This document shows, in pieces, positions 4,649 through 41,641 of a DNA stretch of 64,000 bases (position 1 is its first letter; each line of letters opens with the position of its first letter). The position numbers and the translations under genes were made by a program. This DNA is from the human T2T-CHM13v2.0 reference genome, Homo sapiens. The notes beneath the pieces are model-generated. The model ran no database searches, had not been told where the DNA came from, and saw only the letters and a list, made by a program, of their open reading frames with translations. The stretch is taken from NCBI RefSeq assembly GCF_009914755.1, contig NC_060930.1; one strand, written 5' to 3'.

Positions 4649-4795
4649 GACACTTGTAAAGCGGCATTTATTTCCTTGAGTAGCTCGTTAGTCTTATTAA
4701 AATCTGCCCGCATGATATTTTTCTCTCTGAGGTGGTCTGCTGTCATGACATCCAACTCTTTTTCAAGTCTCTTGTTTAAATCTTGTTCATGCAAC
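4649..4795 (-). CDS. FAM184A: FAM184A exon 14 (147 nt, phase 2-2): LHEQDLNKRLEKELDVM...INAALQV(S)
   Basis: A-rich acceptor ...aaatcaaacag|, donor TC|gtaagt; frame continues from exon 13. Confidence 0.9.
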
Positions 4796-10354: not shown

Positions 10355-10567
10355 TCTTTGCTCCTTTTCCTTTTCCTCTTCCATAGTTTGAAATGCAAGG
10401 ACATGTGCTTCTTTTAATGATTTGTGTCTTTGCTGATGTTGCTCCTCTAATTCTTCAAGCTCTTGCGTAAGCCGCTGTCGTTCTTGCGTAAACTGGGCTT
10501 GCAGTTGTTGCAAAGAAGTCTGAGACTGGGAAAGCTGTATCTCCAGATTCTGTTTCAGCAAGGAAAT
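10355..10567 (-). CDS. FAM184A: FAM184A exon 10 (213 nt, phase 0-0): ISLLKQNLEIQLSQ...EEEKEKEQR
   Basis: Overlaps ORF 10340-10561; acceptor ...ggcatag|, donor AGA|gtaagt. Confidence 0.93.
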
Positions 10568-13500
10568 CTATGCCCCAGAATGGTACACAATGAAGAATAA
10601 ATACAAGGCATAGTTCACAAACTACCCAGCAAAGGGGGAAAAGCATTTCAAAGATATTAATGATAGTAAAATAACTGCCTTAATGTTTCCATTTAAAATA
10701 TTCTAAAATATATCATAAAAATAACCATTTAATATCACCATTTAAAATTCCACTTTCTGTAATTATTCTGAAAATAGTTTAGTTATATTGTTTATAGACT
10801 GTCTAAAGAACACTGCAGCCCACATTTAGAATACAATGAATATCTGTCTTAAGTTTCAATAAAAATTCATAATATGAAATAAAAACAGAAGACAACTAAC
10901 ATATTCATTAGGTTATAGTCACTTTGAGGAAAGAGTATGTTAAACCACTTATTTGTAAAGTAGTAAAGTGAAATAGGAGTGTGAGCTCTGAGTTAAAATC
11001 CTAGCTCTGTCACTTGTTAGTATCAACACCTCACCAGGCTATGTTACTACATATAGCTCACTTTGAACAGACTCTGGCATGTACTAAGCATTCAACAAAT
11101 ATTAGCTAAGATTATTTGAGAATTAAAAACCTACTGTTTAAAAGATACATCAGTTTATAATTTAGAATCATCATGTAAATTTTTATTTTTCATTTAACTC
11201 AAAGTTATTGAAAACCTTTAAGTTTCTAAAATGTCTCAAACGTCCCACAATCTTTTATTCAGCCATTATAATAATGTCAGGTGCTTTTCTTTCACTATGG
11301 AAAACTGATTTGTCACTCCTTTTGAAAACAGACATCAGCCTCAGTATGTCTGTATCACTTCTAGATGTCTTAATATACTTAAAATTAAGTATTTTGGGAA
11401 GAATAAAAACATAAAACAGGTATATGTATGTATTATATACGTTCATATATGCATTTGATAAAACCATTTAATTGACCTATTTCTATTCTCATACACAGGA
11501 TATTGTAACTTGAAACTACGTATCTGTATTCTAAAAGAAGTCTAAATCTAAGAGGAACTTAGGAGAACCAGATACAAAGTTGTAAAATGTGTTCCATAAG
11601 CAACTTAAAACACTCTATGCTTTTATATACTGGTAAAACAGTTTCTGCGGCCAAAAAAGCCAATGAAAAGAGGAAACTTTAAAGTGAGTTTTTGTAAATG
11701 GGAAAATACTCTCTTTTAATTGATGGAAGGCAGACATAAGTTGCCTCACATGCGTCACAAAGAAAGGTACCTGGGAAAGAAAGAGAAAAGGCGGGGAATC
11801 ACTAGACATGCAAGAGAAGAACGGAGGAAAGAATCATTAATTGGAAAAAGAAAAGGTCGAAAGCAAGCCACCATATCCCTTTAAAAAGCAGCAGGAACAG
11901 TCACAGACTGTAGTGAGCTTAGGGTGATGATTAGCCTTCCAGAAGGGTTCTGGACAAAGTTATCAATCAGAGTTAGTTATAAAGGTTAGCATATGGCTTT
12001 ATGGAAACAGTCAAGCACTGGTGAGAAATCGTATGAACAATCTAGGTGTAATCTGTTTTAATGTATTTCCGAATAAGTGACTCCACCTGTTCAAACTTTA
12101 TGAATTCTGCTTATTAATTTCTACAAAAACCTAAGGTTTCAGAGGTTATTTTAAAGTTTTGGAGCCAAGGTGGAACTGCAACCCTCTGATACCAAATATC
12201 ACAACTCCTTATACCTCTAAATGGCAGCAGCACCCACGACTTACAGACTGAAATAAATCCTGCAAATGTGAGAATGTGATATGCGCATAAGAATCTCACA
12301 GCCACAGCTAAGGCCATACTTGTGGAATATGATAAATTATACCACATGACTTCTCACCATTTTATGCAATGAAAATCAGGATAAAACGAATATTGAAGAC
12401 AACCTAGAAAGAAAAAATAAACCACAAAAGGGTAACAAGAACAAAAATAGACATTTGTGAACACTGATTTGTAACCGGTAGAGCCGTTCTCTTCCCAGCA
12501 AGTTGGTTCTTGAAATAGAGAAAGCACCTACCCGCTCTCTTTGGAAGTTCAACCCTAGTCCCAGCCTAAGCATGGGGACCCATGGGACTGCCTTTTTTGT
12601 TTCTGAGGATAACTTGTTGAAATGTATACGGGAAAGCTGGAAAGGGTGTGTCACATGCAGAATAACAATATTCTCAAAGCTATTACTTGGCACCTGACCA
12701 AGTGGGGATTAAAGTCTACCCAGCATTCTGCTCACCAAGCTGTCTGCCCTGGTACAGATCTGTGTCCATCCAAAAAGAATGGACATGTTTTTCTGCTTTG
12801 CACAAAGGTGCCATATAGGCTAGCAGTGGCCCTGGATCCCATCCTCAAATTTAGTGTGTACTTCAATTAGTAGGAAACCAATCAGCTCACAGTGGTGTTT
12901 CTTATTTTCTGCAATACCTACTTCAAAATTTGCTGAATCGACAGACCTCTCATACGTTAATTTGACTCACGTTTGACCTATTAACAGATGAAACTTATGA
13001 AGAAATGCAATATTTAAAGTGAATGACTGGAAGTACCACAGTGCATAATAGTTACATATTTAAAATCTACAGAGTTTTAAATTTCTCCAGCTAAAATAAA
13101 ATACACTTAAATATTTTACATTGTAATATACTTTACCTTGAAAGAACTCCAAAATAGTACTTTCCATCTTAGGATATGTGATTAATCTTTGTATCTACAC
13201 TCAAGAAAATAATATAAACTATGTGCAGAAAGATATGATCATGCAATTTAGTGTTCAAACATACTTAGATATTTTGTATTCTTAACTTTGAAAGCACATC
13301 AAAATAATATTAAGGCCATCGAAAATCTTTGAATTCATGCTCAAGACAGTAATGTGAATTATATGCAGAAAGCCTTAATCATGCAATGCAATATCAAAAT
13401 TTATTTTGTTCTTTTTAAAAACAAGTTAGCAGAATTGCAATAAATAGCTTTTATTCAGCATGAAAAGTACATGGCACTTTAAAAGACAATGAGCAAAGTA

Positions 13501-14083
13501 ATGTAAAGTGAATTAATTTTTATAGCTATAATTTAAACAGCTGAGTTTAATATAATCAATAGAAATACATATTAATGTAAAACTTTAACTCAAAAGATAA
13601 AAAACCTCTGCTTTAAAAGGTTTAGGCAATTTTGGTAAGTATTTTTATTACAGAATTATAGAATATCTAGAAAGGCTTGTGTTGAATAAAGAATGAGAAC
13701 AAGTAGTTGCTTCAAACTATATATTATATTCAAATTATGTAGTGCACGGTATTAGTTTCTATACATTCGTTAAAATTTAAAAAATTCTATTTCTTATTTT
13801 GTTTAAATAAACCAAAATATTTTATTTCAGAAAATAATTTAATCTTTAGTTTTTAAATTCTTAGCATAGCAATTTAGATATGAAATATATTCTACTGGTT
13901 GATAGGTGCCAGACATTTTAGAGACAATTTTAAAGGTCAAACTGCACTGATAGTAATTGCCACCTCCTGTCTCTACCATTTAAAAAATGATTGTCTTTTT
14001 GAAAATAAAGTTTTACAGTCTTTTTGAAAATGGAATATTAAAGTTTTATAAAAATTTCAAAAAGAAAAAATTAAAAATATATG

Positions 14084-14472
<389 letters not shown>

Positions 14473-14694
14473 TGGCTCACTGCAGCCTCAACCACCTGGG
14501 CTCAAGTGATTCTCCCACCTCAGCCTCCTAAGTAGCTGGGACCGCAGACATGCACCAACTGATTTTATATTATTTCTAGAGATGAGGTATCACTCCACTG
14601 CCCAGGCTGGTCTTGAACTCCTGGGCTCAAGCGATCCTCCTGCCTCAGTGTCTAAAAGTGCTGGGATTACAGGCATGAGCCACTGTGCCCAGCC
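14473..14694 (-). mobile_element. AluJ, 3'-truncated and internally deleted
   Basis: Begins mid right arm (tggctcactgcagcctc), no T tail. Confidence 0.9.
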
Positions 14695-14989
14695 TACTTT
14701 TTACAGACCAGTTTCACAAAGACTCTGTACCTCTATAATGGTGTTTGTGGAAGAACTCTCTCAAAACAAAAAGTGAAACATCAAATCTGAGGTACTGGGT
14801 ATGACAGAATGTCAATATGAGACATGTCATTAATTATCTACATCTTACCTACAACCTTTGGTTTTTGATGCAATATCGGTGTTTTTTCTTCAAAAACCAT
14901 TGAGCCTTGTTACAAAAGTGAAAGAATACAGAAAGTATACAAATGATGTGTTCTCCAAATAAAGCATGTCTTGAGATAGTAAACGTAAT

Positions 14990-15115
14990 CTGTGATTCTC
15001 AAACCTGGCTGTGTATCAGAATCATCTCTGCAGATTTTCATAAAGACAGTTGCCTGTGCCCTGATCCCTTGAGATTCTGATTTAGCAGGTCTGGAATTGG
15101 GCCCAGGCTGCCTAA
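14990..15115. mobile_element. MER5-type (hAT-Charlie) fragment
   Basis: gtgattctcaaacctggctg...gagattctgatttagcaggtctgg. Confidence 0.6.
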
Positions 15116-16228
15116 GATATTTTTATTCCTATTTATCAAAGTAAAAAGTGGTTCGTTATGAAAATTTTAAAAATACAGGAACATATAAATAAAAGGAAAA
15201 GTCTCCTTCATTCCCTTTCCTCACTTAATCCCTAAGGGTAACTGGTGTTAATATTTTGGTATGCCTTACTGCAGACTGTAATGGCTTAGGTCTCTCTTGA
15301 TATAATTCACCGTTTTGTTTTCTTTTGCTTTCTTACCTAGATCACGTGTAAATGGCTAGATGATTTTACCAAATGTAGAGATATATCTGATAAAATGCTG
15401 GCTATGCCTTATATACAAAAGTTACAAAGGCTCCAGGGCACACCTCAAAAGATCAGTGCTTAATGTCCATAGCAGCTGAAACAGAGACACCTGGGGCAGC
15501 TGATGGGGACAGACATCCTGTAAGTATCACATAGAGAAACAAACACCACTTCAAATGTGAAACCATGAGAGTGTCCTGACCTGCAGATGTGGATGAGGTG
15601 GTTTTCACACACTCAACTTTATATATCTTCCAAGATGAGTACGCCAAGGGATTTAATGATGTTTAATAATTTTTCCAGTAGAGGGGCCAGCCAGTTTGTG
15701 TTTTTGTAGTTTTTTCCTTCCCTTCAAAGTGGCATTTATAAGGTACTCACGATATTCAGATATGACCCATTCCTTTTAATAACCACATAGACTTCCTAGG
15801 GCTGGCACTGTCCCTCACTTCTACAACAGCTGTTCTCCCTCCTTCCTTTCTTCCCAGTTGGCTGCCTGGGTTTATTCAGGGATTAAATGGAAATCCCTGG
15901 AAGGTAAGCCCCTCTCGTAGCACCTACAGATGAATTATGACTGGGACAAGAAAGTAATCTAATTCTAAAGTATTAACTCCAATCCTTTCAAATATATAAA
16001 ACATTAAAAACTGCTAGCCTATCAGTCTGAGCAGATCTCAGGAAAAAAACTGCTAACCTAGGCTTAGTAGAGGACAGTAGGAATAACTTATTATTATGCC
16101 AATGACTTAACGAAAATGGTCATGTAAAATGTTTAAAGGTGCTCAAATATTTTAATTATATGATTTATTTTTCTTCTTTAATCACTAATGTGCTATTACT
16201 GAGGAGGCTAGTTAAGAAAAGTAAATTT

Positions 16229-16572
<344 letters not shown>

Positions 16573-17361
16573 TTAGAAAGTTATCTATGAAGGACAGATG
16601 TATCAATAACAGTCACTTGTTTTTGAATGTGCTAAGCACTGAATTCTTGTATGGAAAGCTGGGGTACACACCATGTACAGAGGGAGTGGGCAGGTGCTCA
16701 TCCTGCAGAGCACGGCACTCTGACAAAGTCATGTTTTGCTGTGGATGATGACAGAGTAAAAAGGTGATCCTCAATGACTATAATGTTATAAAAGAGATTT
16801 CATTGTGTTACCAGCCCCTTTTACTTTTTTTGTAGGAGATGAATCAAGGCACTTTCATTCTAGTTATTAATAGGCAATTTCAATAAGGTGGTTTTTGTTT
16901 AATGAATAAAAAGTACAACTGTTAAAGAAAATGTGACTGTGCTGTCACAAATATTCTAAAGTATAATTCAATTAATTTTAAAAATAATCATATCCTATTT
17001 GGGTTCTTATTTCTATCCCAATTAGCACATATGTCAAAATGTCTATATTGATATAGCTATCATGCCAAAATTTGTACTATGCTCTATGTCACTGCTAAAA
17101 AGAATTTCTAAATATAGCCTATTTCAGCAACACTGAGATAAATGTTTGTTGTTTCTTTTAAGAGATGAAAGAAAATGCTGCTAAATGTATTTGCATATTT
17201 TAATTATTTTTTACATAGAAAAAAGACTGAATATGAAAACTAGGTAAAATTTTTATTTTCTTGCATAGTAGGAAAAACTTATGGGGTATGAGGAAATAGT
17301 TTCATTCCAGGAGTATCAGAATTTCACAGGACATCTCTAGGCTCAAAGCTTTGATTTCTCT

Positions 17362-17557
17362 AGGGCTGGCATTAGTAAACTACAATCTGTTTTTGTAAAT
17401 TGTTACTGGAATACAGTCATACCTATTCGTTTACATACTGTCTATAAGTATTTTCACACTACAATGGCATAGAGTTTCTGCCACAGAAACTGTCTGGCCC
17501 ACAAAGCCAAAAGTATTTACTATCTGGTCCTTTACAGAAAAGTCTGCTGACTTCTGC
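17362..17557 (+). mobile_element. MER58A DNA transposon
   Basis: tggcccacaaagccaaaagtatttactatctggtcctttacagaaaa. Confidence 0.75.
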
Positions 17558-18295
17558 CTTAGGACATCAAGAAAAATATTCAACAATGTTCAATTCTGTG
17601 TCATCTAATTTTAAAGGACAAGTTGAGTATGGGTTTGGTGTGAAAATAAATCTCACTTTTTCTTATGATATACAAAGAAAAATGTTTTTAAATGAGTGTT
17701 AAATGGAATATTATTTTGAAGATGAATTTCTGCATACCTGAGTGTACATAAGTAAAGAGTGATCACTTTGTCAATGCTTAGGAAAGGGATTTACTCTATT
17801 TTGCTTTTCATCTGTTGATAATTATAACATTACAATGTATAAAATATGTTCTAATTCCCATAAACCTTCATAACAATCCAGTACTTTTAAAAAAGGAAGT
17901 CACTAATGCTAGTTTTTCAAAAAATAAACTAGTTTAACAACAAAAAAATTTTACATTTATTTCCATTTTTATGATTCAACTAGTTAATAGTTTTTCAAAA
18001 ATATTACTATATCTTTCAAAGTAAACATAAAAATAATGAAATTTATGTCTGAGATATAAAATCTCAATTGGCTTTATAATAAATATATGCTTATTAATAC
18101 ATGTGGTAGATGTATGCATACACAAATGAATGACTGAAAGTTAGAAGCTTTTATTACCCATACACAAAATATATCTTATTGAATGCCAAACAGTATTTTT
18201 TATATAAGTTGAAGCTTTAAAGCAGTGATGTTGTTTATGCAAAATGAAAAGTGCAACATGCCCTTGTGTACAAATTGTAAGTGCCGCTCACTTAC

Positions 18296-18337
18296 ATTGC
18301 TGATAGATTTATGCAAAGCTTCACCCAGAGACTGCCG
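18296..18337 (-). CDS. FAM184A: Candidate 42-nt in-frame cassette exon in FAM184A intron 9: RQSLGEALHKSISN
   Basis: Long polypyrimidine tract ending tcttttcttcatag|, donor AAT|gtaagt, 14 codons with no stop, phase 0-0 matching the host intron. Confidence 0.65.
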
Positions 18338-18996
18338 CTATGAAGAAAAGATTACAGGAATAAAGGGAAACATTCAGAAATCAACTAAGTGAAAGAAAGA
18401 GGAATAAGAAGGGAGAGTAAAACACAGAACATTAATTATAATGTGCTCAAGAGAAAACAAGTTGAAAACAGTTCTAAGAAACAAACTAAACAAAAAGAAA
18501 TTAAAGACACACAGTCTAAATTATCTATAATCCCTTAAAACAATGTCTGATATATTTGTGGGCTTGCAGACTTACCTATACAAACTACTAAAGGCTAGGC
18601 CATATAAATCAGAGTTCAGTTTAAAAGATGATGGTTACTGAGGGACCAAGAGGGGATATTACTGTTCTAAATTCCTCCCAGAAAGCTACAAGATAACTAT
18701 TCAAAGCATTATGCCCACTTTGCTGTAGGTTCACGGAGAATTTCTCTTAAGAGAAATGAGTTGCGGTGAAAACCGCCAACACTAACTTGACTGACCATAT
18801 AATTTGGAAGCCAGAAATAAATATGACATAATCACTAGAAATTAAGGATTTAATAATAATCTGGTTTTATATTAGGGGGAAAGGAAGAAGAGACACCCTT
18901 ATATCTTTTTAATCCTATTTCCTAGGATATATTTGGCAAAATTATTTACAACATAGGCTCATTTTTCAGAAGTTCATTGAAATTTTATGTTGATAC

Positions 18997-19655
<659 letters not shown>

Positions 19656-19950
19656 TCAGAAAGAATGCAATTTTCTTTTGTTTCCATTTTTTGCATATTG
19701 CAATTATTTCTTCAAGTGACACAATCTAAAGATAGTTTTTATTGGAAAATAATTTTTACTAATAACTTAGACTAAGATATCCAATGATATAACTTATTAA
19801 AGTTGCAAATATGAGATAAAAAGATTAATTTTCTATGTTGACTTCATAACTTCTCAATCTCAACTTTCTCATGCTTTTATGTACATCACTAGTTAATTTT
19901 ACTTTTTACTTTATTCTTTCTCATACTCAATATTCTTTATACAATAATGA

Positions 19951-20342
<392 letters not shown>

Positions 20343-20799
20343 AACATCTTTTTATTTCTTAGAACTGATGTCCTAGTACTAGAAGTTAAACTAAAATTTA
20401 TACCATTTACTTATGAAGTAGATTTTATTTTCACTCTTTAAGGTGTCATCAGACAAAATATGTATGTTATTTAAGATTCCTGAATTATTTGATAAATTAG
20501 AATATGCCAAATCAGAGTGACATGCCAAATCATCCCTTCCCTAGGTGTAGATTTGGGGCTTTATATGACAGAAATATATTTGAAATCTAAACTCATATGG
20601 TCACTACCTCTGTCCACACCCAGTTGCAGGCCATGAAAATATTGAATCCAATCGGTACAGTGCCCAAGCTGTGACCTCAAGTGAGCTTACATCACAGACC
20701 TGGCATGGCAATTGGTAAAGGCATAGTAGTGCTGCTGGGTGGCAATACCACTGTTTGTTAATACATAACTGAAGTAACCTTTTTCATTTAAAAATACTA

Positions 20800-21128
<329 letters not shown>

Positions 21129-21366
21129 ATTAGAGTACTATTATGTTCCAGAAAACATCCTAAGTGCAGGGTGAGATACAGAGTTGAGTAAGATGTATCA
21201 ACTTATTCAACTATGTATCTCACCCTGTATAAATTTTATACATTTATTTAAAACAAATGTATAAAAATTAAAAAATAAGGAAAAAAGTATTATGATTTTT
21301 AAAAAGGCTGGTGTGATAGGGAATGACTGGAGGAGATATTGAGTTGATGGTAAGAAAAGATATTTT

Positions 21367-21679
<313 letters not shown>

Positions 21680-21906
21680 AGAAAAGATATTTTAGAAGTG
21701 TAACATTTAAACTGAGGTAAATGCAAATAGGAGATAACTTTGGGGAAAGAGTACCTGGCAAGTGGATCAGCTAGCACAAAGCCCCTGAAGGTGAAAGCAA
21801 GCTGGGAGCAAGTGGGTGTGGGAGCGGAGAAAGGGTTAGTGAGGGACAGTTAGCTGAAATGAGACAGGAGATACACAAAGGGGCCAGCTGGCTTAAGGTT
21901 TAGTAG

Positions 21907-22278
<372 letters not shown>

Positions 22279-22552
22279 TCCCTGAGAGGATTTTAAGCAA
22301 GGGAGTGGCAGGATCTGATTTACATCATGAAAGATCACTTTGAGTGCTGTAAGAAAAGTGAAATTGATGAGGACAGACAGGAGACAGACCTTGGTAACAG
22401 TGGCTTGGACTAGTGTTTACTAGGGAAGATGAAAGCAAATAGAGCTAGAATATGTTTTGGAGGTGGAATAAACAGGATTAAAGGATTACATGGGAAGTAA
22501 AGGAAAGACATATGGATGGTATTTAAACCACAGACTGGTTGAGATCCCCAAG

Positions 22553-23234
22553 CGCTGTGGACTAAAAGTGTTCCCTTAGCCTCAGATTCATGTGTTGAAA
22601 GCCTAACCTCCAGTGTGAGGATAATAGCAAGTGCAGCCTTTGGTAGGTGATTAGTTGATGAGGGCAGTACCCTTGTGAATGGATTTAATGTCCTTATAAA
22701 GAAATCCCAGAGAGCTCCCTTGGTGCTTTTACCACGTGAGGACATAGTAAGAAGATAGCTGTCTATGCACCAAGAAGCAGGCTCTCATCAGACACCAAAT
22801 CTGCTGGCACCCTGATCTTGGACTTCCCAGAATCCAGAACTGTGAGAAATGAATTTCTGTTGTGGGCAGGCACAGTGGCTCATGTAATCCCAGCATTTTG
22901 GAAGGCCGAGGCGGGAGGACTGCTTGAGCTCACAAGTTCAAGACCAGCCTGGGCAATAAAGTAAGACCCTGTTGCTACAAAAAAACAAAAACAAAATTAG
23001 CTGGCATAGTGGCATGTACCTGTAGTGCCAGCTACTCAGAAGGCTGAAGTTAGAGAATCACTTGAGCCCAGGGGGTCAAGACCACACTGAGCCATGACTG
23101 TACTACTGCACTCCAGCCTGAGAGACACAGCAAGACCCTATCTCAAAAAATCATAAAGTAAATTTTAATTAATGAATTTTGTTTTAAAGCCATCCAATCT
23201 ATGGTATTCTGTTATTGCAGTCCAAGTGAAGACA
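22553..23234 (+). mobile_element. MLT1A-type MaLR solo LTR interrupted by an AluJ (22864-23150)
   Basis: gatcttggacttcccag...aactgtgagaaatgaatttctgttg and ctatggtattctgttattgcag. Confidence 0.8.
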
Positions 23235-24619
23235 CCATGTCTGCTTAAATAAATACTGGATAAACTAAACATTTGTATGTAAAAATACTTATTTGGGAAG
23301 CATTCTATATGAGTAAGATCCATGTTAACAAAAAGATGGCCTATATAATAGTCAATTTGTTTTAAAGCATCTTAAATTTCTTGTTAATTTTTGAGATTCA
23401 TGAAAAGAGCCTTAAGAGAGCCTTTTCAACTGAGAAGACTTGGAGACTTCAGCATAGTGAGTTTACTGAATGTATTTCAGGAATTCTATTATTGAAGGAT
23501 AGATATAATGAGACGTTGAGATAAGTGAGGAAGAAAATTTACAATAACTAAAAAAAGTTGCTGCAGTTAATTAGAAATTTAGCACTTGGTACATAAAAAA
23601 CAATGTTCTTAGTTATCTAATTGTTCTAAACCTCAGTTTAATCATTTAGAAAATAGGACAAGGTTTTACATGCTTGTAATTTGCAAACATGTTATTATAC
23701 AAATACTGAAATCCATTGAATTGTAAGCTTTTAGAGGACAGAAGCCTGTCTTATTCACATTCTGCATCCAAACTGGTGCCTGGCACAGGGTAAATGATTA
23801 ACAAATGTTTATTCAAAAACTTAATGAATGATATGAACTCTTAACATTGATTAGTTTTTGCTACTCTCTAAATTAATTCTCTCCTAATAATAGCAGAAAG
23901 AGAAAATTCTAGATTGCTAAAAAGAAAACATATTATTTGTCCGGAAAATATAAATCTGAACACAGAAAGGCTTCTAAGAGGAAAGCAATGTTCATTGAGT
24001 GACACCTAGCTTGTCCTACCTTAATCTATTCTCCACACTGCAGCCAGTTTTGAAATCACAGTATTTGAATATTTCACCCTCCTGCTGATCAAAGCCCTTC
24101 AACAGTTCACTGCTCTTTGGATAAAGTCCCAAATCCCTAACAAGGCAAAGAAGGCCTGGCGTGATCTGATCCTTCTTACCTCCCCAGCTTCCTAGCTCTC
24201 ACTCTCCAGAATAAAGGTGTCATCAGGGCTTCCTCAGGGGCTGTGCACACACTGCCCGCTCTGCTCAGAATGCTGTTCTTCTGGCCAGGTCTCAGGTAAA
24301 GAATTCCACATTTAGAGACGCCTTCCCCAAGTTACACATGAATGTTTACCACAGTTGCAATTTAACACCCAATTTGCAGTTCAGATTGTAAGCTCCAGGA
24401 AGGCAAAGATCACTCTGAGCCAGTTACTATTCTGGCACAAGGCCTAGCATATCAGAGGCACTTCATTTTGACTGAATAAATGGATAAATGCATGAAAGAA
24501 CATGCAAAAGTAATTTCTTACTACTGATTTCAATACCTCGAGTTAAAATAAATAAATAAATAAATAAATATGGAGGTGATGTGGGCCAAGATTAGAGCCA
24601 CTTAAAAAGCCAGAGGGTT

Positions 24620-25032
<413 letters not shown>

Positions 25033-25346
25033 TTATAATTTATCAGAATCACCATACTATTGTGTAATCAGAGCAACATTGCCATAGGGCTTAATAAAAA
25101 GCACTACTAATGCTTTACACGTACAAGATATTACACATGCATATATCCATGAATTTCCATAATTGTTATTGCTCGACTTTCAATTCTACTTTGAATAAGA
25201 AATCTGAAGCAATAGAAAGGAATTCTCATTACTGACAAAACCTGTGTCATTTAAAAAATTTCTAACTTCCTTGAAACAATATTGATACTAGTCTTACATT
25301 GTAATTCAAGTAAAATACATTAAAGTTTTAAAAAATTCCAATTTCA

Positions 25347-25645
<299 letters not shown>

Positions 25646-26916
25646 TGTCCAATTTCAACATTTAAAATACAACACTATAACTTCTCAAAGCAAATTATGT
25701 AAACTCTTTTTCTAATGTTAATTTCAAGTATACTAATATCTAGAGGAAAGCAACAAATTAAGATACAGAAGTGGGATTCAAAGCTCTGAAAATTTCCCAA
25801 AACAAAAAGTCACAAACTGTTGTTCGATATTTAACTAAAATTCAATGACATGAATTTCATTCATACAAATAAAATGAAGGTAGAAACAAGCTAATGTGTT
25901 AGGTTATGCTTAATACTTTTTCTCAGAGACTCGGTCTAACATAACTTCATAATCATATGATCACTGAACCCTTTCAGATTGAAAATATTTTAATTATTTT
26001 TAGTATCTCATCACATGAAAGAGAAACAGATTAAGTTGATTTGTTACTATAATGCTGTCTAAATGTTCTTAAGCATTTTTTAAGTGTGTCCTGGGCTGCA
26101 GCACCTCTGAAGTCACCGACTGTTCTGCATTTCATCACAGGTGTTACTACAGTACTTCATAGAACAGATTTTGCTCAGTATTCATTAAAGACTGCCCAGT
26201 ATTCTTAACGCACACTCTCTTTTAAAGCTAGGTACAGATTTCATAGTTCCATCTCTTCATTCTCTTCTCCTAAAGGTGACAATTTAAGAACTGGATGGAC
26301 TTAAATTCTAATAAGGGAGTTTTGGGTAGGGAAAAGAAAATTAAATATTAATTCATAATAAAATTATTTAGATCAATTCAGAAAACAATTTAGCATCATT
26401 TATCTTAGAAGAAAAAATCTTAAGAGGAAGAATACTAACCACATAAGTGTGATAAAAGAGGATATAATGTAGCCAAAGTAATAATGTCATTCAGTTTTTT
26501 GATTGAAGAGAAATTAAAAACTTTCATATTTAAAGGAAAATATCACCAATTAACTTTGAATTCAGGACTTGGCGTAGGAAAAATAAGGATGATGGACTTG
26601 GATTGGTTTTGGTAGACTTTAATTCCATTCCACATTTTCTAAGAAAGTGAAATTAGGTCATGCCAGCTATTCTCACTTTCCTTTCTAGCTGGCTTTTCTC
26701 TTTTCTTCATACACTATTTCTCTTTAGTCTTTTTGTTTCTCTCTCCTATGACTTTCCCTTATCTTACTCCAGCCATCTCTTTCCCCCAGGGCTCTGAATG
26801 TACATTCAACATAGGTTCTTGCTTTCCTGACGGCTAGAGAGAGGACTCAGAGCCTTCAGGGTCAGCTTCACTATCTGCTGTCACTGCTTAGGGAACCTGT
26901 CAAGGAATCTGACTGA

Positions 26917-27235
<319 letters not shown>

Positions 27236-27329
27236 GGAAGAGATCATTATTCTAGGTATCTTGCTATTCCCTCTACCTCAGAATCTACTTCCATCTATTC
27301 TTCCATTGAAAGTTGAAAGGTAGTGGTAT

Positions 27330-27552
27330 GGCTGGGCGTGGTGGCTCACACCTGTAATCCCAGCACTTTGGGAGGCAGAGGTGGACAGATCACTTGAAGT
27401 TGGGAGTTCAAGAACAGCCTGGCCAACGTGGCAAAACCCATCTCTACTAAAAATACAAAAATAAGCCAGAGGTTGCAGTGAGCCAAGATCACCTCAAAGC
27501 ACTCCAGCCTGGGTGACTAAGTGAAACTCCATCTCAAAAAAAAAAAAAAAAA
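27330..27552 (+). mobile_element. AluS missing about 80 nt of the right arm
   Basis: Linker aaaatacaaaaataagcc joins directly to agaggttgcagtgag. Confidence 0.9.
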
Positions 27553-27617
27553 TTAAAAGAGACAGAATACATTTCTTGCTAACATAATGAAAATTCAAAG
27601 CTAAGAAAAAGAATAGC

Positions 27618-27930
27618 AGCCGGGCGCAGTGGCTCACACTTGTAATCCCAGGACTTTGGGAGGCCGAAGCAGGTGGATCACCTGAGGTCAGGAGTTCAAG
27701 ACCAGCCTGGCCAACATGGTGAAACCTCGTCTCTACTAAAAATACGAAAATTAACCAGGCAGTGACATGCACTTGTAGTCCCAGCTACTTGGGAGGCTGA
27801 GGCTGGAGAATCACTTCAACCCAGGAGGTGGAGGTTGCAGTGATACAGTGGGCTGAGATTGCACAACTGCACTTCAGCCTGGGTGACACAGCAAGACTCC
27901 ATCTCAGGGGAAAAAAAAAACAAAAACAAC
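27618..27930 (+). mobile_element. AluS
   Basis: Full dimer. Confidence 0.93.
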
Positions 27931-28559
27931 AGCAGAATGAGTACTGAGCTCTAATGCCAAATTTAGTCAATATTTTCATGATCTAGATAGTCTGCATCAG
28001 TGCTCTTTAACTGAAACATGAATGTGAGCCACATGTACAATTTAAAGTTTTTCAGTAACCATATTTAAAAGAGCAAAAAGAAAGGATACTTACTATCATA
28101 TTGGATAGCATTGGTCTAAAAATCAGAAAGCAGTTTACAACAAACCTTACTGAAACTGGCTTTTCAACTGCTCTTGATAAAGAGCATTTATTTTAATGCT
28201 GTTTCTTAGTCTAGTCATTGCCCTTTCCTACTGAGTATGAAAAATTCTAAAATACTCTATGATTGTAAAATCAATACATCTAAGAGAAAACTTACCATCT
28301 CATCTCCCCAGTCACCCACACCCCACCCCAAATAAATAGCTCATCTTGACTTCCTTGTCTCAGATGATGATTTCCTTTCTGTCTGGCTCAAACCCAAGTC
28401 AACTTTAATATTTTCTTCTCTTCTACCAAAGCAGATGATTGATCCTTTTACAGTTTCTCTTGCACTTGCAGTGAGATAAACTTAATCCAGGTCCTAATTG
28501 GGCAGAATTATTTGTATTTCATGTATCTGAAAACGTCTTTGGTCTCTGTGCCTCATTCT

Positions 28560-29480
28560 GTTCACTCTATTCAACAACTGCCAAGTGCTTACTATGTGCC
28601 AGGAACAGTTTTAGGTGCTGGGGATACCCTAGTGAATACCACAAAGGTCCAGGTCTCGTGGAACTTACATGTGAATAGGTGAGAGAATCAATATATACTG
28701 TGTAGAAGTAAATGTTCTGAAGGAATACAAAGGAGAACAAAGCATAGGAGGCTAGTGAATGATGATGGTGCTATTTTAGAGAAAGTAAGTAAAGAAAGCT
28801 CTTTTTGTGGAGTTAAGATTTGAGTAGATAACTGATTAAGTGAAGGGAAAAGCTGTGCAGATCTCTAGAAAGTGGGTTCCATGTGGAGGGACTGGTAGGT
28901 GCAAAGTCCCCAAGATGGGTTCAGCTTGTTGTGTGTGTTCCAAGAACTGCAAGGATCCAGCATGGCTGTAAAAAAGAAAGGGAGAGAGTGACAGGAGATG
29001 ATGTTGGCAATGCAGCCAGAGACCAGATCATGAGCGTACTAGAGGCTATGGCATGAGTGTGGACTGTATTCTAATTGTGGTAGGTAGTCACCAGGCATCT
29101 TGAAACAGGATAGTAATATAATCCAACTTAATATTTTAAGAGCATCACTTTGGCTGGTTAGAAAATAATCTGTAGGTGGTAAAGAGTAGAAACAAGGTAA
29201 CAGTTGCAGTACAGGAAAGAACTACAAGTGTCCTGGAATCAGATGGTGGTAGAGGTAGTAGGGAGAAGCAGGATCTATTTTGAAGGTAGAGCAGTGGGGA
29301 CTGCTGATGAACTAGTTGTCTGGTGTACAAGACAGGAGTCCAAGATGGCTGAGCAGTAAACAGTGAACGGACGCTAGTTCTAGAAAGAGCAGTTTGGCTG
29401 AGGTTGAGGGGAGCTGGCGGTACATGGTATCCATTCAAGAGTTCAGTTCCAAACACTTTAATTTAGATATTTAAATTGAA
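28560..29480 (-). mobile_element. L2 LINE 3' fragment
   Basis: ttcaacaa...gtgcttactatgtgccagg is the reverse L2 3' end, followed by purine-rich L2 body. Confidence 0.7.
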
Positions 29481-29887
29481 ATGTCTCTATTTCATTCTTA
29501 CTTCAATATAAAAGTCATATTAAGCTTCCTAAAATAAAATTTTCAACATGTTATTCTCTTTTCCACAAACCTTTGACAGAATCTCATAGTTTACCAAGTA
29601 ATCTTTAAACTCCTAAGCTTGGAAGTCAAGGTTTTCCACAATAACCTCTACCCAAACTGCCCCCAACACTGTTTTTCTTATTACTGTATTCCTCGTAATG
29701 CCTGGGAAATATACACATATGTTTAATAAAATGTTTACTAAGTGAATAAAAACCTTTATATTTTTGTCACTCCTCTGTGTTCATCCTTTGCCCTATTCAT
29801 GAGTCCCACTAAAGCTGGCCTCCTCAATGAAACCTTCCCCAAGCACACTGGCTATATTATACTGTTTCTTGACTTTATACTCCTGAC

Positions 29888-30089
29888 CAGTTGTATGCTG
29901 GTAAATGTTTAACAGCTCTCTGAAAAGCAATGACCCGATTTGTAGCATTTGCTGATATCTGTGATATAAATGCAACTACCACAGGAGACTGCAAGTCATC
30001 AACATGATGTCCCCCAATGTGGTGCTGGTAAGAGAGGTGCACAATTAGCTATGATGAGCTGGTAGGAGCCAGCACCAACACATCATTAC
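29888..30089 (-). mobile_element. MER63A-type hAT DNA transposon
   Basis: cagttgtatgctggtaaatgtttaac...gatttgtagcatttgctgat...gagctggtaggagccagc. Confidence 0.7.
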
Positions 30090-33000
30090 TCAGTACAAAC
30101 TGCTTGGATCATTTTTAAAGTCACCTACTGCACAGTGACTTTTAAGTACCTATATATAAATCTTCCTATTAGATTGTAAATTTGTGAAGTATAAACATTG
30201 TGTCAGATACAGGGCTATAATCAGCTAAATGACTTTGTCTCAAAGTTCACATCTACAAAATGGAGAGTCAGACTCAAACTGTAAAATTCCATAGTTCTGT
30301 GTCTCAATGGTCTGTGCATCTCCCTTAATTTTTCAGTCCAATGCTTTAAGGCTGAATAAGTAAATCATTATATTGGACCCAAAATAAAATCTGCCTTAAA
30401 AAAGATGAAAGAAAGGAACAAGTGATGGCATTTTAAAATCACAAATAGAAAATATGATCACAGAAAACTCTATATAATCACTTTTCCTTGGATAGAGTTG
30501 AAGAATAAGAATGTAGTTTTTTCGCTTTAAAGAATTCAAATGTATACACTGATCAACCCAAGAAGCATAATTAGCCTTGGACTAAAGTGTAATCATTGGA
30601 CAGAAAGAGAGAACACAATGAAATATTAAAAGGAAACTAAAAGATACAAAATTGACTGAATCGTAGCACAGAATGAAAATAATAGCTTTTGGAAAATTCC
30701 ATGAAGTGAAAAACATCTGATTCAAGTAAAATGAAAATTTTATGCTTTTAATGCTCATTTTTAGATAGGCAGCCCATGATGGCCGGCTTAAATCTAATTT
30801 AACTCTCAAGAGATTCATAGGAAAGACAAGTTATTTCACTCCTTTCCTCTAAATAGGATGAAATTCAGGTATGTTAAGGTATAAAAATCTCATGTTTTTC
30901 ACTCAGAAATAGTTAAAATATGTGAAAACGCACATCCTCTGATACTTTTTCATAGCATATGCCTCTGCCTAAGCCCTAGCCACTCCAATTCTATTCCTGT
31001 CTTACTCCTTTAATATCATGAATCCCAAGCCATGTCTGTTTCCCTTATGTGCTGAATGCTGCTGGCCTTGCGGGGCTAAAGGAAATGAGTGAGACCAGTA
31101 GGAGTGAAGGCAGTGAAAGGGTCCTAGGGGTAGGGCTGGGGGTGGAGGTTATGGGGAACAGGGCTTAGCAGCAGGGGCAGGCAAGTAGAAGGTGGTAGAG
31201 GGGCTTTAGAGCACAGGCTCTAGAAATCCATCCAAAGGAGTCGAGACAACAAGATCCAGAGCCAAGAAGGAAGGTTTTGTCCATAACGACGTTCCATTTA
31301 AAAAGAACCACTGGTCCTACTATAATTTTTTGTCATCTAGTATGCCTAGAAAGGATGAAACCTTGATAGCATCATACCCATTTTTACTTTAATGGGGCAT
31401 CTTTTTGTGCACTTGTTTTCTTAATTTTCTTCAGGCATAGACAATCCTGGAGTGCAACAGCTACTTGCCAGTTTCTCTATGGCAATGCGTGTGCCTAAAC
31501 AATTCAGAAGTGTGGAAAAAGGAAGATATTATAATCTTGGAAATGGTCTGATGGCATGGAGCATCACAGAATAGTTTTACCTTTGGAACCAATTAATTCC
31601 CGGTTATCTTGATATTTATGGTTAATCTGCTTTGAAAATTGATTTAGAAATTCTGTAAAGCTGGCAAAAACTGGAGCTAATATGTAATACATTATTTTAT
31701 GATATACAGAACCACAAGATGCAAAGCATTAGGTCCTCTCAGGAAAGAACTGCAGAATAGACACCCAAAGAAAAAAAGAAGAAAACAAAATTCAGAGATG
31801 TATGGATGGCATCTGACAAACTAATACAAGAGATTAAAGGAATAACAAATAAAACAATTTGATAGAAAATCGGCAGGAGAAGCGGTGGGCCACTTTACAG
31901 TGCAAACCCAGCCGAAAACTGTCTATGTGCAATACTTTCTGGTTGAAAAAATATATCTCTATTAAATAATCAAAGTAATTTAATCTTTCTACGGGCAGAA
32001 TCTTACTACTCGTCTAACAATAGGGGATCAGTAGCACCCTACCCAGTAAAATCTGTCCTTGTGGGTCCCTAAAAGGAATGTAAAATAAGTCTATCATAAG
32101 CAATGCTAATGTGGTGTCCAAATTCTAGTAAAAGTTGTTCCCTTGTTCTTTTTTTTGTCTGAGTTTCAAGTGACTGACAAAAGCTCATATATACACAAAT
32201 GTAAACATACATATGTATTCTCTCTTTTCAGAGTAACATTATAATTATGAGATACTAGACACAAATTGGCAGGCCCCAAGTATTCTTGAAAGACACTGCA
32301 TGTATGTAGCTATGTAACAAATGATCTTACAAAAAGTCTATCCTATTTATTTTGAAATTCATCATGCTCACAAATAGAAAGATAATGGTAGGTTTCTGGA
32401 ACTACATTATTGAGCTGCTTCTTGTCTAAGTTCTGCACTTGCTTATCAACTGGTGATTCATGCAGTTAATCCTATTTAATGACTTGCTCTGCGGAAGAAT
32501 GTTAAGAATTAATAAATTTAAAAGTTGTGTAAATGAGTGAAAATGTGCAAATTCTTTTAATTACAGTTACAAATGTTATGGAAATAAGCAAGCATAACAT
32601 AAGAACACAGATTTAGGAATACTACCACCTTTTGTTTATGTTATACTCTAAGGGGCTTAAAGCATTTTGAAGGATAGCAGGCAACGCTCCTTTGGTGAGA
32701 AAAGTAAGCTGTTCATTTTTGGTAAGTGGTTTTAGGTAATCATGATACATATAATAAATTCTACCCTCTGTTGCCCAAACAGTATCTAAGGACATGAAAA
32801 AAGATTTTATGCTTTCAAAACATAGGTAACTTTCCCATTTAAAATCTTAAATATATTCAGGTCAAATATTAAACTAAAAAATCATAATAAATTCTTCTCG
32901 GTATTCAGACTGCATATATAACAATGATTTAGCAAAATGTTTTATAAGTTTATAAATACATCTTCCTGGTTTTATGTATTTTTAGAAGTTTTAAGTTTGT

Positions 33001-33108
33001 CCCATGAAAAATAACAAAATTCAGTGAATTAACAGAGTTTTACAATATTTGCCTAGCCAGAGAATGTCAAGGGAGATGAAACTTCATCATGTACACATTA
33101 TTAATTAC

Positions 33109-33259
33109 CTGGTTTAAGAGATCTTCTACTTTCTTCTGCCATGAATCTCTTGCTGCATTTTTCTCTCGATCTTTCAACTGCAAAAGTTGAGACATTGCTG
33201 ACTTCTTATCCTCTTCATGTTGAAGCCTTAACTCTTCACGAAGTTTAGAACACTCTTGT
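33109..33259 (-). CDS. FAM184A: FAM184A exon 9 (151 nt, phase 2-0): QECSKLREELRLQHEEDKK...KVEDLLNQ
   Basis: Within ORF 33067-33279; acceptor ttttattttag|, donor CAG|gtaatt. Confidence 0.93.
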
Positions 33260-39825: not shown

Positions 39826-41518
39826 ACTGGTATTCTTACAATTCCTAGAAATTTCTCATGCCTCAGAGCGTTTGCATAAGCTTTCCTAAATTTATTATTT
39901 TGACGAGCCCTTGTTAATTACTTACCACCCTTTGTAATATGCCTCAGACTTGTGTTTACTTGTTTTTGTGTCTGTCTGTCCATAGTAGTAGGGACCATGT
40001 CTGACTGACTTATCACTGAAACCGCAGTGTGTAACAGTGCTTTGGTACCTAATAGGCATTCCATATTTATTAAATAAATGAATGAGTCACTTACAGAAAA
40101 ACTTCGTATATACTTACTAGCAATTAAGAATAAAATCTCTTTAACATCTCAGAATGAAGGTATTTAACTCCTAGAAGGACCCTAAATGCCTTCACTTTCT
40201 TGACCTTGTATTGTACCAAGGCAGCTGCTAGGCCATGTGTGCCTCTAAGCAGGAAAAAGGCAATACCCCTCAGTGTGGAAGCAGCCCCAGAACATGGAAA
40301 GAGAAGCAAACAAAACTTGTGTGAACTGGGAGAAGACTCCCTTTCTTCCAGGCAGCAGACTTCAGAGAAAATTTAAGTTTTTCTATACTTCTTCTACTAT
40401 AAACAGTGCTGAAATTTTGTCAACAATCCGTAGTTATCTGCTTAGGTTAAATACACAAAAAAATGAAACTGTTGAGTTAAAGGACATGCCTGTCTTTAAG
40501 GCTTTCATATGTGCTGATAAATCCCTTTCGAGGAAAATTATACAATTTTGAATCCCCATCAGCAGTTTCTGAGTGCTTATTTCTTTATCGTTATTAACAC
40601 TGCATGGTCTCAATTTTTTTATCATTGTTAATTTTATGGTGATGGAATGGCATCTCATTGATTTCATTTCCAGTTCTTAAATTATACAAATTATTTTTTC
40701 CTGCTTATTTTTAGCTTGTAAAAAGATAATCTGGGTGTCTGTATTTTTCTTATTGTTTTGTAAATACTCTTAAAAGTGTTAAAGACATGAACTCTTCATT
40801 GGTCAATTTGTCAGTCTCTTCATCTCTCCCAGTTTTTCCTCTTTTTAAATTTTGCTTATGGTGTGTTTTGATATAAAGAAGTTTTAGCTTTAACTGTACA
40901 AATATTCCATGTTTCAATTCACAACTTTGATATCATGTTCAAACAGCCTTCTCTGTCCTCAGGTTTGTCATTTTTGTTTTCATATTTTATTTATATTCAT
41001 ATCCATGATTTTCATATTATATTCCAATCCTTAACCCACCTGGAACTTTGCCGATATGAGATTGAAGAAGAGCTCTAACTTCCCTCTTTTCTCCTCTTTC
41101 ATTTATATCTAGTCTTAAAAGGGCAATGTCACAGACTGTAATTCAAATTAAGCCTACTGATTCTAGCTACCATCCTCAGTTTCTGTTGAAATTGTAGAAA
41201 AAGAGGCAGTATAGAGAATAATAAGCTATTTTTTGGCAAAAGGGTAGAGAACTCTCTCTTGTTCTTTTCCTATGTGGTGATATTCTGTTTTGCTTCTCCC
41301 CACAACAGCACCTTAGTTTAATGTTTTTGACAGTAAATTTTACCTGGTGGAACATAATCAGAGTGTCATGAAAAATTCAACACCAATTAAAGTTTTTAAA
41401 TTATTTTTATTCTAGATATGTTACCTTTACTGAGACTTACCTACCTATACAATGTCACCAGAATAAGTTATTATTATTAAAATCTATAACATAGGCAACA
41501 GGTCTAAAGAATTCTTGC

Positions 41519-41641
41519 CTCTTGATTGGCTGTATTCAACTTGTCTTCCAGTACTTCCTTTAGGTTTTCTAGCTCTTGTTGAAGCTGATTTTTATCCTCT
41601 TCCAGGTTTAGTTTATCTTTGTTATGTTGTTCTTCCAAATC
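41519..41641 (-). CDS. FAM184A: FAM184A exon 6 (123 nt, phase 0-0): DLEEQHNKDKLNLEEDK...KLNTANQE; GC donor
   Basis: Acceptor tttctttttctaag|, donor GAG|gcaaga; this boundary joins in frame to exon 7 (IGHLQ) and read-through stops after 4 codons. Confidence 0.9.

What the first reader, a model, noticed from the sequence alone, without database searches (positions are those of the whole stretch)
18296..18337. Hidden 42-nt in-frame cassette exon in the 22.5-kb intron 9 adding exactly two coiled-coil heptads
Seen: the minus strand reads ...tttccctttattcctgtaatcttttcttcatAG|CGG CAG TCT CTG GGT GAA GCT TTG CAT AAA TCT ATC AGC AAT|GTAAGT. It has a long pyrimidine tract, a consensus donor, no stop codon, and phase 0-0 like the host intron, and it lies in about 1.4 kb free of recognisable repeats. 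It is too short for the ORF track and is absent from the reference protein as I recall it (...LLNQ|ISLL...). Inference: inserting RQSLGEALHKSISN keeps heptad register (a positions V,R,L,I,L; d positions L,L,S,L), as expected for a real regulated microexon-class exon. A GCATG (RBFOX-type) motif lies 35-39 nt downstream (18257-18261), where RBFOX binding typically promotes inclusion. It may already exist in predicted isoforms; I cannot check.
Basis: partly seen in the sequence, partly recalled or inferred. Interest (0 to 1): 0.85.

Follow-up and report, generated by a model that had tools for sequence, protein, structure and literature searches.

The report
Ancient 42-nt alternative exon of FAM184A
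The 42-base segment deep in a FAM184A intron is the human copy of a small alternative coding exon that gene models include in species from rays to monkeys; this makes it a real exon, but one already in public models of other species, and its use in humans is still unproven.

Summary
Window 18296-18337 (minus strand) reads AG|42 nt|GTAAGT, has no stop codon, encodes RQSLGEALHKSISN and lies in a phase-0 intron of 22,541 nt.

The pattern alone is not beyond chance. Simulated introns give 0.21 such candidates on average, P(>=1)=0.20, and a second candidate lies at 28669-28716.

Conservation decides it. A 14-residue insert, RH[S/C/Y/F]LGEAL[H/Q]KS[I/V][N/S]N, sits exactly at the LLNQ|ISLL junction in 17 of 120 listed FAM184A proteins. 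It is also in 114 of 114 hits of a junction-centred search, covering 61 species from rays, coelacanth and lungfish to macaque and marmoset. Eleven of its 14 columns are invariant. The macaque insert maps uniquely to 18337-18296.

It is therefore an ancient alternative exon that public models of other species already include.

No human or ape protein listed carries it (0 of 40 hominoid entries). No paper I found describes it, so human inclusion is untested.

Human differs at the otherwise invariant His2 (Gln, CAG), which creates a second in-frame AG 6 nt inside the exon.

The RBFOX cue is weak: one GGCATG. The T-rich, UCUU-rich 200 nt upstream is more striking.

The parts
18296..18337 (-). 42-nt alternative coding exon (phase 0-0) encoding RQSLGEALHKSISN. 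It is the human orthologue of the vertebrate FAM184A insert RH[S/C]LGEALHKSI[N/S]N. T2T-CHM13 chr6:120174296-120174337, computed from the hub's window start.
   Evidence: Searches give the sequence and translation. In one search the macaque insert maps here by tblastn (E 6e-5, 12 of 14 identical; next best hit in the window E 0.28). Searches show the insert in 114 of 114 hits, 61 species.
18338..18370 (-). 3' splice site: TAG acceptor, pyrimidine tract, and a candidate branch-point A at 18361 (tttAt, -24). The branch-point consensus yUnAy is recalled, not tested.
   Evidence: One search gives the sequence. In one search the pyrimidine fraction at -20..-3 is 0.78. In one search the nearest upstream AG is about 47 nt away.
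18288..18295 (-). 5' splice site, AAT|GTAAGTGA.
   Evidence: GTAAGT at +1..+6, 7 of 11 matches to the recalled U1-complementary consensus.
18338..18537 (-). 200 nt upstream of the exon, unusually T- and pyrimidine-rich with 20 UCUU/CUCU/UUCU-type motifs. Candidate binding region for a PTBP-type repressor (inference).
   Evidence: pyrimidine 0.685, T 0.52 and 20 motifs against intron-window means of 0.518, 0.329 and 4.3. These are the 99.2, 99.96 and 99.8 percentiles of 200-nt windows of the intron.
18257..18261 (-). Single GCATG 35-39 nt downstream of the donor (context GGCATG). Weak RBFOX-type cue.
   Evidence: one GCATG and no TGCATG within 400 nt on either side. Background is 1.06 per kb in the intron.
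18332..18334 (-). Codon 2, CAG (Gln), where all 114 orthologous proteins have His. The G creates an AG at exon positions 5-6, a possible competing in-frame acceptor that would give a 36-nt exon.
   Evidence: One search gives the sequence. Searches show His invariant. The created AG follows from the genetic code, since His is CAY.
18299..18301 (-). Codon 13, AGC (Ser). The other mammals listed have Asn, except Fukomys, which like human has Ser (SVSN). Non-mammals have Ser.
33109..33259 (-). Upstream constitutive exon (exon 9 of NM_024581.6), ending ...VEDLLNQ in phase 0.
   Evidence: Hub table.
10355..10567 (-). Downstream constitutive exon (exon 10), starting ISLLKQNLE... in phase 0.
   Evidence: Hub table.
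10568..33108 (-). Host intron 9, 22,541 nt, phase 0.

Best explanation
Window 18296-18337 (minus strand) is the human orthologue of an ancient alternative cassette exon of FAM184A that is strongly conserved at the protein level.

Shown:
- The segment has canonical AG/GT splice sites, is 42 nt and open, and sits in a phase-0 intron.
- The same 14-residue insert occupies exactly this exon-exon junction in gene models from cartilaginous fish to Old and New World monkeys.
- Eleven of its 14 residues are invariant.
- The insert and its flanks form one of only two hyper-conserved patches of the protein.
- Models with and without the insert coexist within species.

Inferred:
- When the exon is included, the spliceosome joins exon 9 to it and it to exon 10. 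This adds two heptads, roughly 2 nm of helix, into a long continuous helix without a shift of frame or register.
- The insertion places a conserved LGEALHKS surface in the middle of the conserved KKVEDLLxQ-ISLLKQNLE patch. Splicing would then toggle a probable interaction surface of this poorly characterised coiled-coil protein.
- Inclusion is probably restricted by tissue or stage. The very T- and UCUU-rich 200 nt upstream suggest repression by PTBP-type proteins, and a single downstream GCAUG is a weak hint of RBFOX enhancement.

The human copy keeps intact splice sites, so it is probably still spliced in somewhere, at about 70% given orthology. No tool here could look at human RNA.
For: Sequence and phase.

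First protein search: querying with exon 10 alone returned 120 listed FAM184A proteins. Of these, 17 carry RHSLGEALHKSINN between LLNQ/LLSQ and ISLL.

Junction-centred search: macaque isoform X5, residues 687-726, gave 114 hits at E<=0.001 among 452 candidates. All 114 carry the insert. The 61 species include 2 rays, coelacanth, lungfish, frogs, a newt, lizards, a snake, turtles, an owl (clusters of 441 and 71 members), echidna, opossum and many placentals, among them Macaca fascicularis, Callithrix and Sapajus.

Independent sources: some entries are named by UniProt only and not by NCBI, including pig, opossum, dog and rabbit.

Conservation: in an alignment of 27 insert-bearing proteins, R, H, L, G, E, A, L, K, S, I and N of the insert are invariant. 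Only 38 of 1095 14-residue windows have >=11 invariant columns. They fall in two places, residues 44-70 and 690-730.

Orthology: tblastn of the macaque insert hits only 18337-18296 significantly.

Splice sites: they match those of the annotated exons in strength.

Structure: AlphaFold2 puts residues 700-713 inside the continuous helix 572-939, with block pLDDT 85, 81 and 78.

Upstream region: pyrimidine and UCUU enrichment above the 99th percentile of intron windows.
Against: - No human, chimpanzee, bonobo, gorilla, orangutan or gibbon entry carries the insert: 0 of 40 hominoid entries among the 120 listed, and none among the 114.
- The exact human peptide is in 0 of 367 proteins fetched.
- A search restricted to shorter proteins found nothing.
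- The six transcript-assembly-derived ('lgn') entries all skip the exon.
- This absence is weak evidence. Only 1 of 18 Old World monkey entries and 0 of 14 strepsirrhine entries carry it. The database is clustered at 90% identity, so isoforms can hide inside clusters.
- Human has Gln at the otherwise invariant His, plus a second change in 14 codons. That would fit relaxed constraint.
- Most supporting proteins are computational gene models, and I could not see the RNA evidence behind them.
- The regulatory proposals rest on motif counts in one species only.
- pTM of the AlphaFold2 model is 0.25. A monomer model cannot show a coiled coil.
Confidence: 0.7

Rival explanations
1. An orthologous relic. 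The exon is real and used in other vertebrates, but in the human (perhaps hominoid) lineage it is no longer included, or only at trace level, and is drifting.
For: - 0 of 40 hominoid entries carry it and there is no human-type peptide in 367 proteins.
- By the hub table, the human RefSeq selected transcript lacks it.
- Human Gln replaces a His that is invariant in 114 of 114 proteins.
- Two amino-acid changes in 14 codons, where the 35 other placental species listed show only pig position 3 (Cys for Ser) and Fukomys IN>VS.
- The CAG creates a second AG 6 nt inside the exon.
Against: - Acceptor, pyrimidine tract, donor and open frame are all intact.
- Absence from models is equally the rule in Old World monkeys (1 of 18) and strepsirrhines (0 of 14), so it may reflect which tissues were sampled.
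- Ser at position 13 is the non-mammalian state and is evidently tolerated.
- One substitution at a constrained site does not establish drift.
Confidence: 0.25
2. An annotation artefact. The insert was propagated between species by homology-guided gene prediction and is not spliced into mRNA anywhere.
For: Most of the 114 proteins are automated models (XP-type names). Homology-guided predictors can copy an exon from one species to another.
Against: - A 42-nt stretch of a long intron would not keep 11 of 14 codons invariant, an open frame and exact junction placement from rays to primates without selection on the protein.
- Entries come from more than one source or pipeline (ncbi, uniref-only, eukprot).
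- The exon appears in the sole or first-listed (X1) model in several species, for example Gastrophryne, Protopterus, rat X1, Hyla X1 and Lacerta X1.
Confidence: 0.03
3. A chance pseudoexon: good splice-site look-alikes and an open 42-nt frame arising at random in a 22.5-kb intron.
For: Such candidates arise by chance. Simulated introns give a mean of 0.21 and P(>=1)=0.20. A second one exists at 28669-28716.
Against: The encoded peptide matches an insert at the same junction in 61 species. The other candidate's peptide occurs in 0 of 367 proteins.
Confidence: 0.02

Closest known systems
Predicted FAM184A isoforms carrying the 14-residue insert in other species, e.g. Macaca fascicularis isoform X5 (P0062), Callithrix jacchus X3/X7/X10/X19/X21, Sapajus apella X3, rat X1 and Tyto alba X4/X6 (names as given by the sources)
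   Same: Same gene, same exon-exon junction (LLNQ|ISLL), same length (14 residues) and 12 of 14 residues identical to placental mammals.
   Different: Human has Gln for the invariant His2 and Ser for Asn13. No human or ape entry with the insert was returned.
Micro-exons of 51 nt or less regulated by RBFOX and PTBP1 in human brain (Li et al. 2015, PMC4317164; I saw the abstract in the search listing and searched 5 supplementary files)
   Same: Length class (42 nt), frame-preserving, deeply conserved, pyrimidine-rich upstream region and a GCAUG downstream.
   Different: No evidence here of brain-specific inclusion. There is only one GCATG and it is not UGCAUG. FAM184A does not occur in the 5 supplementary files searched; file 1 could not be searched.
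SRRM4-dependent neuronal microexons of 3-27 nt (definition as in the abstracts of PMC7935315 and PMC8378409, seen in the listing)
   Same: A small, conserved, in-frame alternative exon that modifies a protein surface.
   Different: At 42 nt it is outside the 3-27 nt class. In PMC7935315 I searched 12 of 18 supplementary files. FAM184A appears there only for two other VastDB events, of 147 nt and 95 nt, and in an expression table.
Intronic pseudoexons (splice-site look-alikes that are not used; general knowledge, recalled)
   Same: Deep in a long intron, good splice-site matches, absent from the reference transcript.
   Different: Conserved as coding sequence across jawed vertebrates. The true look-alike at 28669-28716 has no counterpart.

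Membership tests
Conserved alternative cassette exon of FAM184A | Canonical AG...GT boundaries, length a multiple of 3, no in-frame stop, host intron phase 0 | tested here: met
Conserved alternative cassette exon of FAM184A | Orthologous peptide at the same exon junction in other species' proteins | tested here: met
   114 of 114 hits, 61 species. Unique tblastn mapping back to 18337-18296.
Conserved alternative cassette exon of FAM184A | Both inclusion and skipping forms exist (alternative, not constitutive) | tested here: met
   At the level of gene models only. For example, Myotis daubentonii P0107 lacks it and P0111/P0116 have it; Glossophaga P0110/P0117 lack it and P0113/P0120 have it; Macaca fascicularis P0044 lacks it and P0062 has it.
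Conserved alternative cassette exon of FAM184A | Purifying selection on the encoded residues | tested here: met
   11 of 14 columns are invariant across 27 sequences from rays to macaque, against 20% invariant columns overall.
Conserved alternative cassette exon of FAM184A | Inclusion in human mRNA | not testable with these tools
   No human RNA-seq or junction resource is available. 0 human or ape proteins carry the insert.
Conserved alternative cassette exon of FAM184A | Conservation of splice sites and flanking intron at the DNA level | not testable with these tools
   No vertebrate genome DNA other than this window is held.
RBFOX/PTBP1-regulated micro-exon (51 nt or less) | Length of 51 nt or less | tested here: met
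   42 nt. The definition is from the abstract of PMC4317164.
RBFOX/PTBP1-regulated micro-exon (51 nt or less) | (U)GCAUG in the downstream intron | tested here: inconclusive
   One GCATG at +35..+39, preceded by G rather than U. Background is 1.06 per kb. Conservation could not be tested.
RBFOX/PTBP1-regulated micro-exon (51 nt or less) | Pyrimidine/UCUU-rich upstream intron (PTBP binding) | tested here: met
   As a sequence feature only: 20 motifs in 200 nt against a mean of 4.3, above the 99th percentile. Binding was not tested.
RBFOX/PTBP1-regulated micro-exon (51 nt or less) | Brain- or muscle-enriched inclusion that responds to the factors | not testable with these tools
   No expression or CLIP data. 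FAM184A is absent from the supplementary files searched.
Heptad-preserving coiled-coil insert | Insert length a multiple of 7 and predicted helical continuity with the flanks | tested here: met
   14 residues. In the AlphaFold2 model, helix 572-939 spans the insert at 700-713 with block pLDDT 78-85.
Heptad-preserving coiled-coil insert | Hydrophobic a/d pattern of the insert in the register of its flanks | tested here: inconclusive
   Crude a/d scoring gives the insert 0.5 in two registers, with flanks at 0.2-0.66. No coiled-coil predictor or oligomer model was run.

The most novel reading that the evidence does not exclude
An alternative exon kept almost unchanged since before rays and tetrapods diverged has been altered specifically on the human (or ape) lineage. 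The invariant His codon became CAG (Gln). This also creates a second in-frame acceptor AG 6 nt inside the exon. The exon is missing from every human and ape model listed. The reading is that humans have silenced, weakened or re-tuned (a 36-nt versus a 42-nt form) an ancient isoform switch in one of the two most conserved patches of FAM184A.
Probability: 0.2. Interest if true: 0.5.

Novelty: already known. Interest (0 to 1): 0.3.

Why it matters
FAM184A is a long helical protein of unknown function. The papers I read list it only as a candidate Rab-GTPase interactor: PMC6639074 (passage) and PMC13596360 (table passage).

The alternative insert lies in one of the protein's two most conserved patches. 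The two isoforms therefore probably differ in an interaction that matters, and the exon marks where to look. This is a useful handle for anyone studying the protein.

For human annotation, the practical point is that a deeply conserved coding exon is missing from the selected reference transcript. Variants in it would then be scored as deep-intronic.

As biology it is an ordinary case of a well-known kind, and models of other species already include it. Only the human-specific change at the invariant His adds a small open question.

Tried and rejected
- Shorter proteins: I searched for partial proteins carrying the insert, to catch partial human transcripts. There were 6 candidates and none significant.
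- Distant relatives: 0 of 150 listed representatives at 50% identity contain LGEAL or GEAL[HQ]K. In one search, 19 of them align with a gap of exactly 14 residues at the junction.
- Literature:
  - FAM184A + isoform: 39 papers, 20 listed.
  - FAM184A + microexon: 0 papers.
  - FAM184A + alternative splicing + exon: 7 papers.
  - FAM184A + splicing: 28 papers.
  - A mixed-term search returned nothing containing FAM184A.
  - Passages read in PMC8141138, PMC8535871 and PMC3351417 mention the gene only in lists. One is an alternative-terminator event, and two are gene-level lists of alternatively spliced genes in mouse neural tissue and retina.
- Supplements:
  - PMC4317164: 5 files, no FAM184A; file 1 not searched.
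  - PMC8187152: 1 file, none.
  - PMC7935315: 12 of 18 files searched; only two other FAM184A events, 147 nt and 95 nt.
  - Supplements that I could not see may list this exon.
- Heptad scoring did not discriminate between registers.
- Rfam, window 15000-22000: no family matched.
- Repeats, window 17300-19300: only two short, weak pairs.
- Extra exons: rabbit (21 residues) and turtle (25 residues) models have a further insert after this exon. Neither has a convincing match in the window, so I treat them as species-specific or as model errors.
- I did not run complex prediction, because the report makes no claim that proteins bind.

Full report
**Observation**

A pyrimidine-rich tract ends in TAG, then 42 nt follow (CGG CAG ... 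AGC AAT), then GTAAGT. The 42 nt translate to RQSLGEALHKSISN without a stop.

I concatenated the hub's 13 coding exons and found the open frame. The intron between 33109 and 10567 is phase 0 on both sides, 22,541 nt long, and interrupts ...KKVEDLLNQ|ISLLKQNLE.... If one coding exon lies upstream of the window, as the translation suggests, this is intron 9.

The GCATG at 18257-18261 is there, 35-39 nt past the donor.

**Is the pattern more than chance?**

Not by itself. I required a GTRAGT donor, a YAG acceptor with at least 75% pyrimidines, a length of 9-300 nt in multiples of three, and no stop.
- The intron then has 42 acceptors, 9 donors, 8 pairs and 2 in-frame open candidates. The other is at 28669-28716.
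- In 300 second-order Markov simulations the mean was 0.21 candidates and P(>=1) was 0.20.
- The splice sites are as good as those of the annotated exons in the window, but pseudoexons can have that too.

**What settles it**

A protein search with exon 10 alone (71 residues, longer proteins allowed) returned FAM184A proteins of many mammals, 120 of 1276 listed.
- In 96 of the 120, ...KKVEDLLNQ is followed directly by ISLLKQ.
- In 17, a 14-residue insert RHSLGEALHKSINN lies exactly between them. Two of these are rabbit models with a further exon after it.

A second search was centred on the junction of the macaque isoform X5 (residues 687-726). It gave 114 significant hits among 452 candidates, and all 114 carry the insert. 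They come from 61 species.

| Group | Insert |
|---|---|
| Placentals | RHSLGEALHKSINN |
| Pig, echidna, opossum | RHCLGEALHKSINN |
| Lizards, turtles, owl, newt, coelacanth | RHCLGEALHKSISN |
| Frogs, lungfish | RHSLGEALHKSISN |
| A snake | RHYLGEALHKSISN |
| Two rays | RHFLGEALQKSISN |
| Fukomys | RHSLGEALHKSVSN |

Further points:
- The primates with the insert are Macaca fascicularis, Callithrix jacchus and Sapajus apella.
- The macaque insert maps by tblastn to 18337-18296 (E 6e-5, 12 of 14 identical). The next best hit in the 64-kb window has E 0.28.
- The rival candidate at 28669-28716 has no counterpart in any of 367 proteins fetched.

**Strength of conservation**

In an alignment of 27 insert-bearing proteins from rays to macaque, 11 of the 14 insert columns are invariant. 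Across the whole protein only 20% of columns are invariant. Only 38 of 1095 14-residue windows reach 11 invariant columns, and they fall in just two places: residues 44-70, and 690-730, which is this junction with the insert. An unselected piece of a long intron could not show this, so I reject both the chance and the annotation-artefact readings.

Models with and without the insert coexist in the same species, so it behaves as a cassette exon. In several non-mammals it is in the only or the first-listed (X1) model.

More distant relatives show no trace of it. 0 of 150 representatives at 50% identity contain the motif, and 19 of them align with a gap of exactly 14 residues at the junction. I can trace the exon back to the common ancestor of rays and tetrapods within FAM184A, and not beyond. 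No teleost entry appeared, which may mean loss or simply no model.

**Structure**

Fourteen residues keep a heptad register by arithmetic.
- My crude a/d scoring does not discriminate.
- An AlphaFold2 model of the macaque isoform, built on the 27-sequence alignment, places residues 700-713 inside one unbroken helix, 572-939. Block pLDDT there is 85, 81 and 78, among the highest in the C-terminal half of the model.
- Overall pTM is 0.25, and a monomer model cannot demonstrate a coiled coil.

The inference is that inclusion lengthens a continuous helix by two heptads. It also inserts a conserved LGEALHKS face into an already conserved patch, which would change a binding surface.

**Regulation (inference only)**

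The RBFOX cue is a single GGCATG. There is no TGCATG within 400 nt, and GCATG occurs 1.06 times per kb in this intron.

The 200 nt upstream of the exon are more striking. They are 68.5% pyrimidine and 52% T, with 20 UCUU-type motifs against a mean of 4.3. These values lie at the 99.2 to 99.96 percentile of windows in this intron, and the zone free of AG is about 47 nt. From general knowledge, this is the look of exons repressed by PTBP-type proteins. No binding or expression data could be consulted.

**Human use**

This stays open.
- No human or ape entry carries the insert: 0 of 40 hominoid entries, none, and nothing among shorter proteins.
- The six unnamed transcript-derived entries skip the exon.
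- The same absence holds for 17 of 18 Old World monkey entries and 14 of 14 strepsirrhine entries. The database also hides isoforms inside 90% clusters. The absence is therefore weak evidence.
- The hub table shows only one of three human RefSeq transcripts, so I could not inspect the other two.

Human differs from all 114 proteins at His2. The codon is Gln, CAG, and because His is CAY the change creates an AG at exon positions 5-6, a possible in-frame competing acceptor. Human also differs from most mammals at position 13, with Ser, which is also the non-mammalian state. This could be drift after loss of use, or a tolerated change. I give the relic reading about 25%.

**Literature**

I found no paper that describes this exon.
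- Searches.
- Passages read.
- Supplements searched: each with files I could not search.

The supplement of PMC7935315 lists two other VastDB events of FAM184A. One is the 147-nt exon at window 4649-4795. Its coordinates give an approximate hg38 position for the 42-nt exon.

**Verdict**

The exon is already present in public gene models of dozens of species, so it is not new as an object. What remains to be learned is whether, and where, humans use it.

Noticed in passing
window 28669-28716 (-): A second in-frame, stop-free candidate exon of 48 nt (NIYFYTVYIDSLTYSH) in the same intron. It has a strong acceptor (pyrimidine fraction 0.89) and a GTAAGT donor. Its peptide occurs in 0 of 367 FAM184 proteins fetched, so it is probably a chance pseudoexon.
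   Followed up: partly
window 41511-41518 (-), donor of exon 41519-41641: This annotated FAM184A exon is followed by GCAAGAAT, a GC rather than a GT donor, so the intron is GC-AG.
   Followed up: no
proteins P0025, P0027, P0030, P0069, P0078, P0095, P0096 (rabbit) and P0217 (painted turtle): Rabbit models carry a further 21-residue insert, and one turtle model a 25-residue insert, at the same junction after the 14-residue exon. Neither has a convincing match in the human window. They are species-specific exons or model errors.
   Followed up: partly
protein P0097: A 1478-residue camel entry combines the FAM184 domain with MCM-type Pfam domains (PF00493, PF17207). MCM9 is the neighbouring gene in the hub table, so this looks like a merged gene model.
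   Followed up: no
window 18332-18333 (-): The human Gln codon CAG puts an AG 6 nt inside the exon. If used as an acceptor it would give an in-frame 36-nt exon lacking Arg-Gln. Species with His (CAY) cannot have this AG.
   Followed up: no
alignment A1, residues 44-70 and 690-730 of P0062: These are the only two stretches of FAM184A with at least 11 of 14 invariant residues across 27 jawed-vertebrate sequences. The second is split by the alternative exon.
   Followed up: partly
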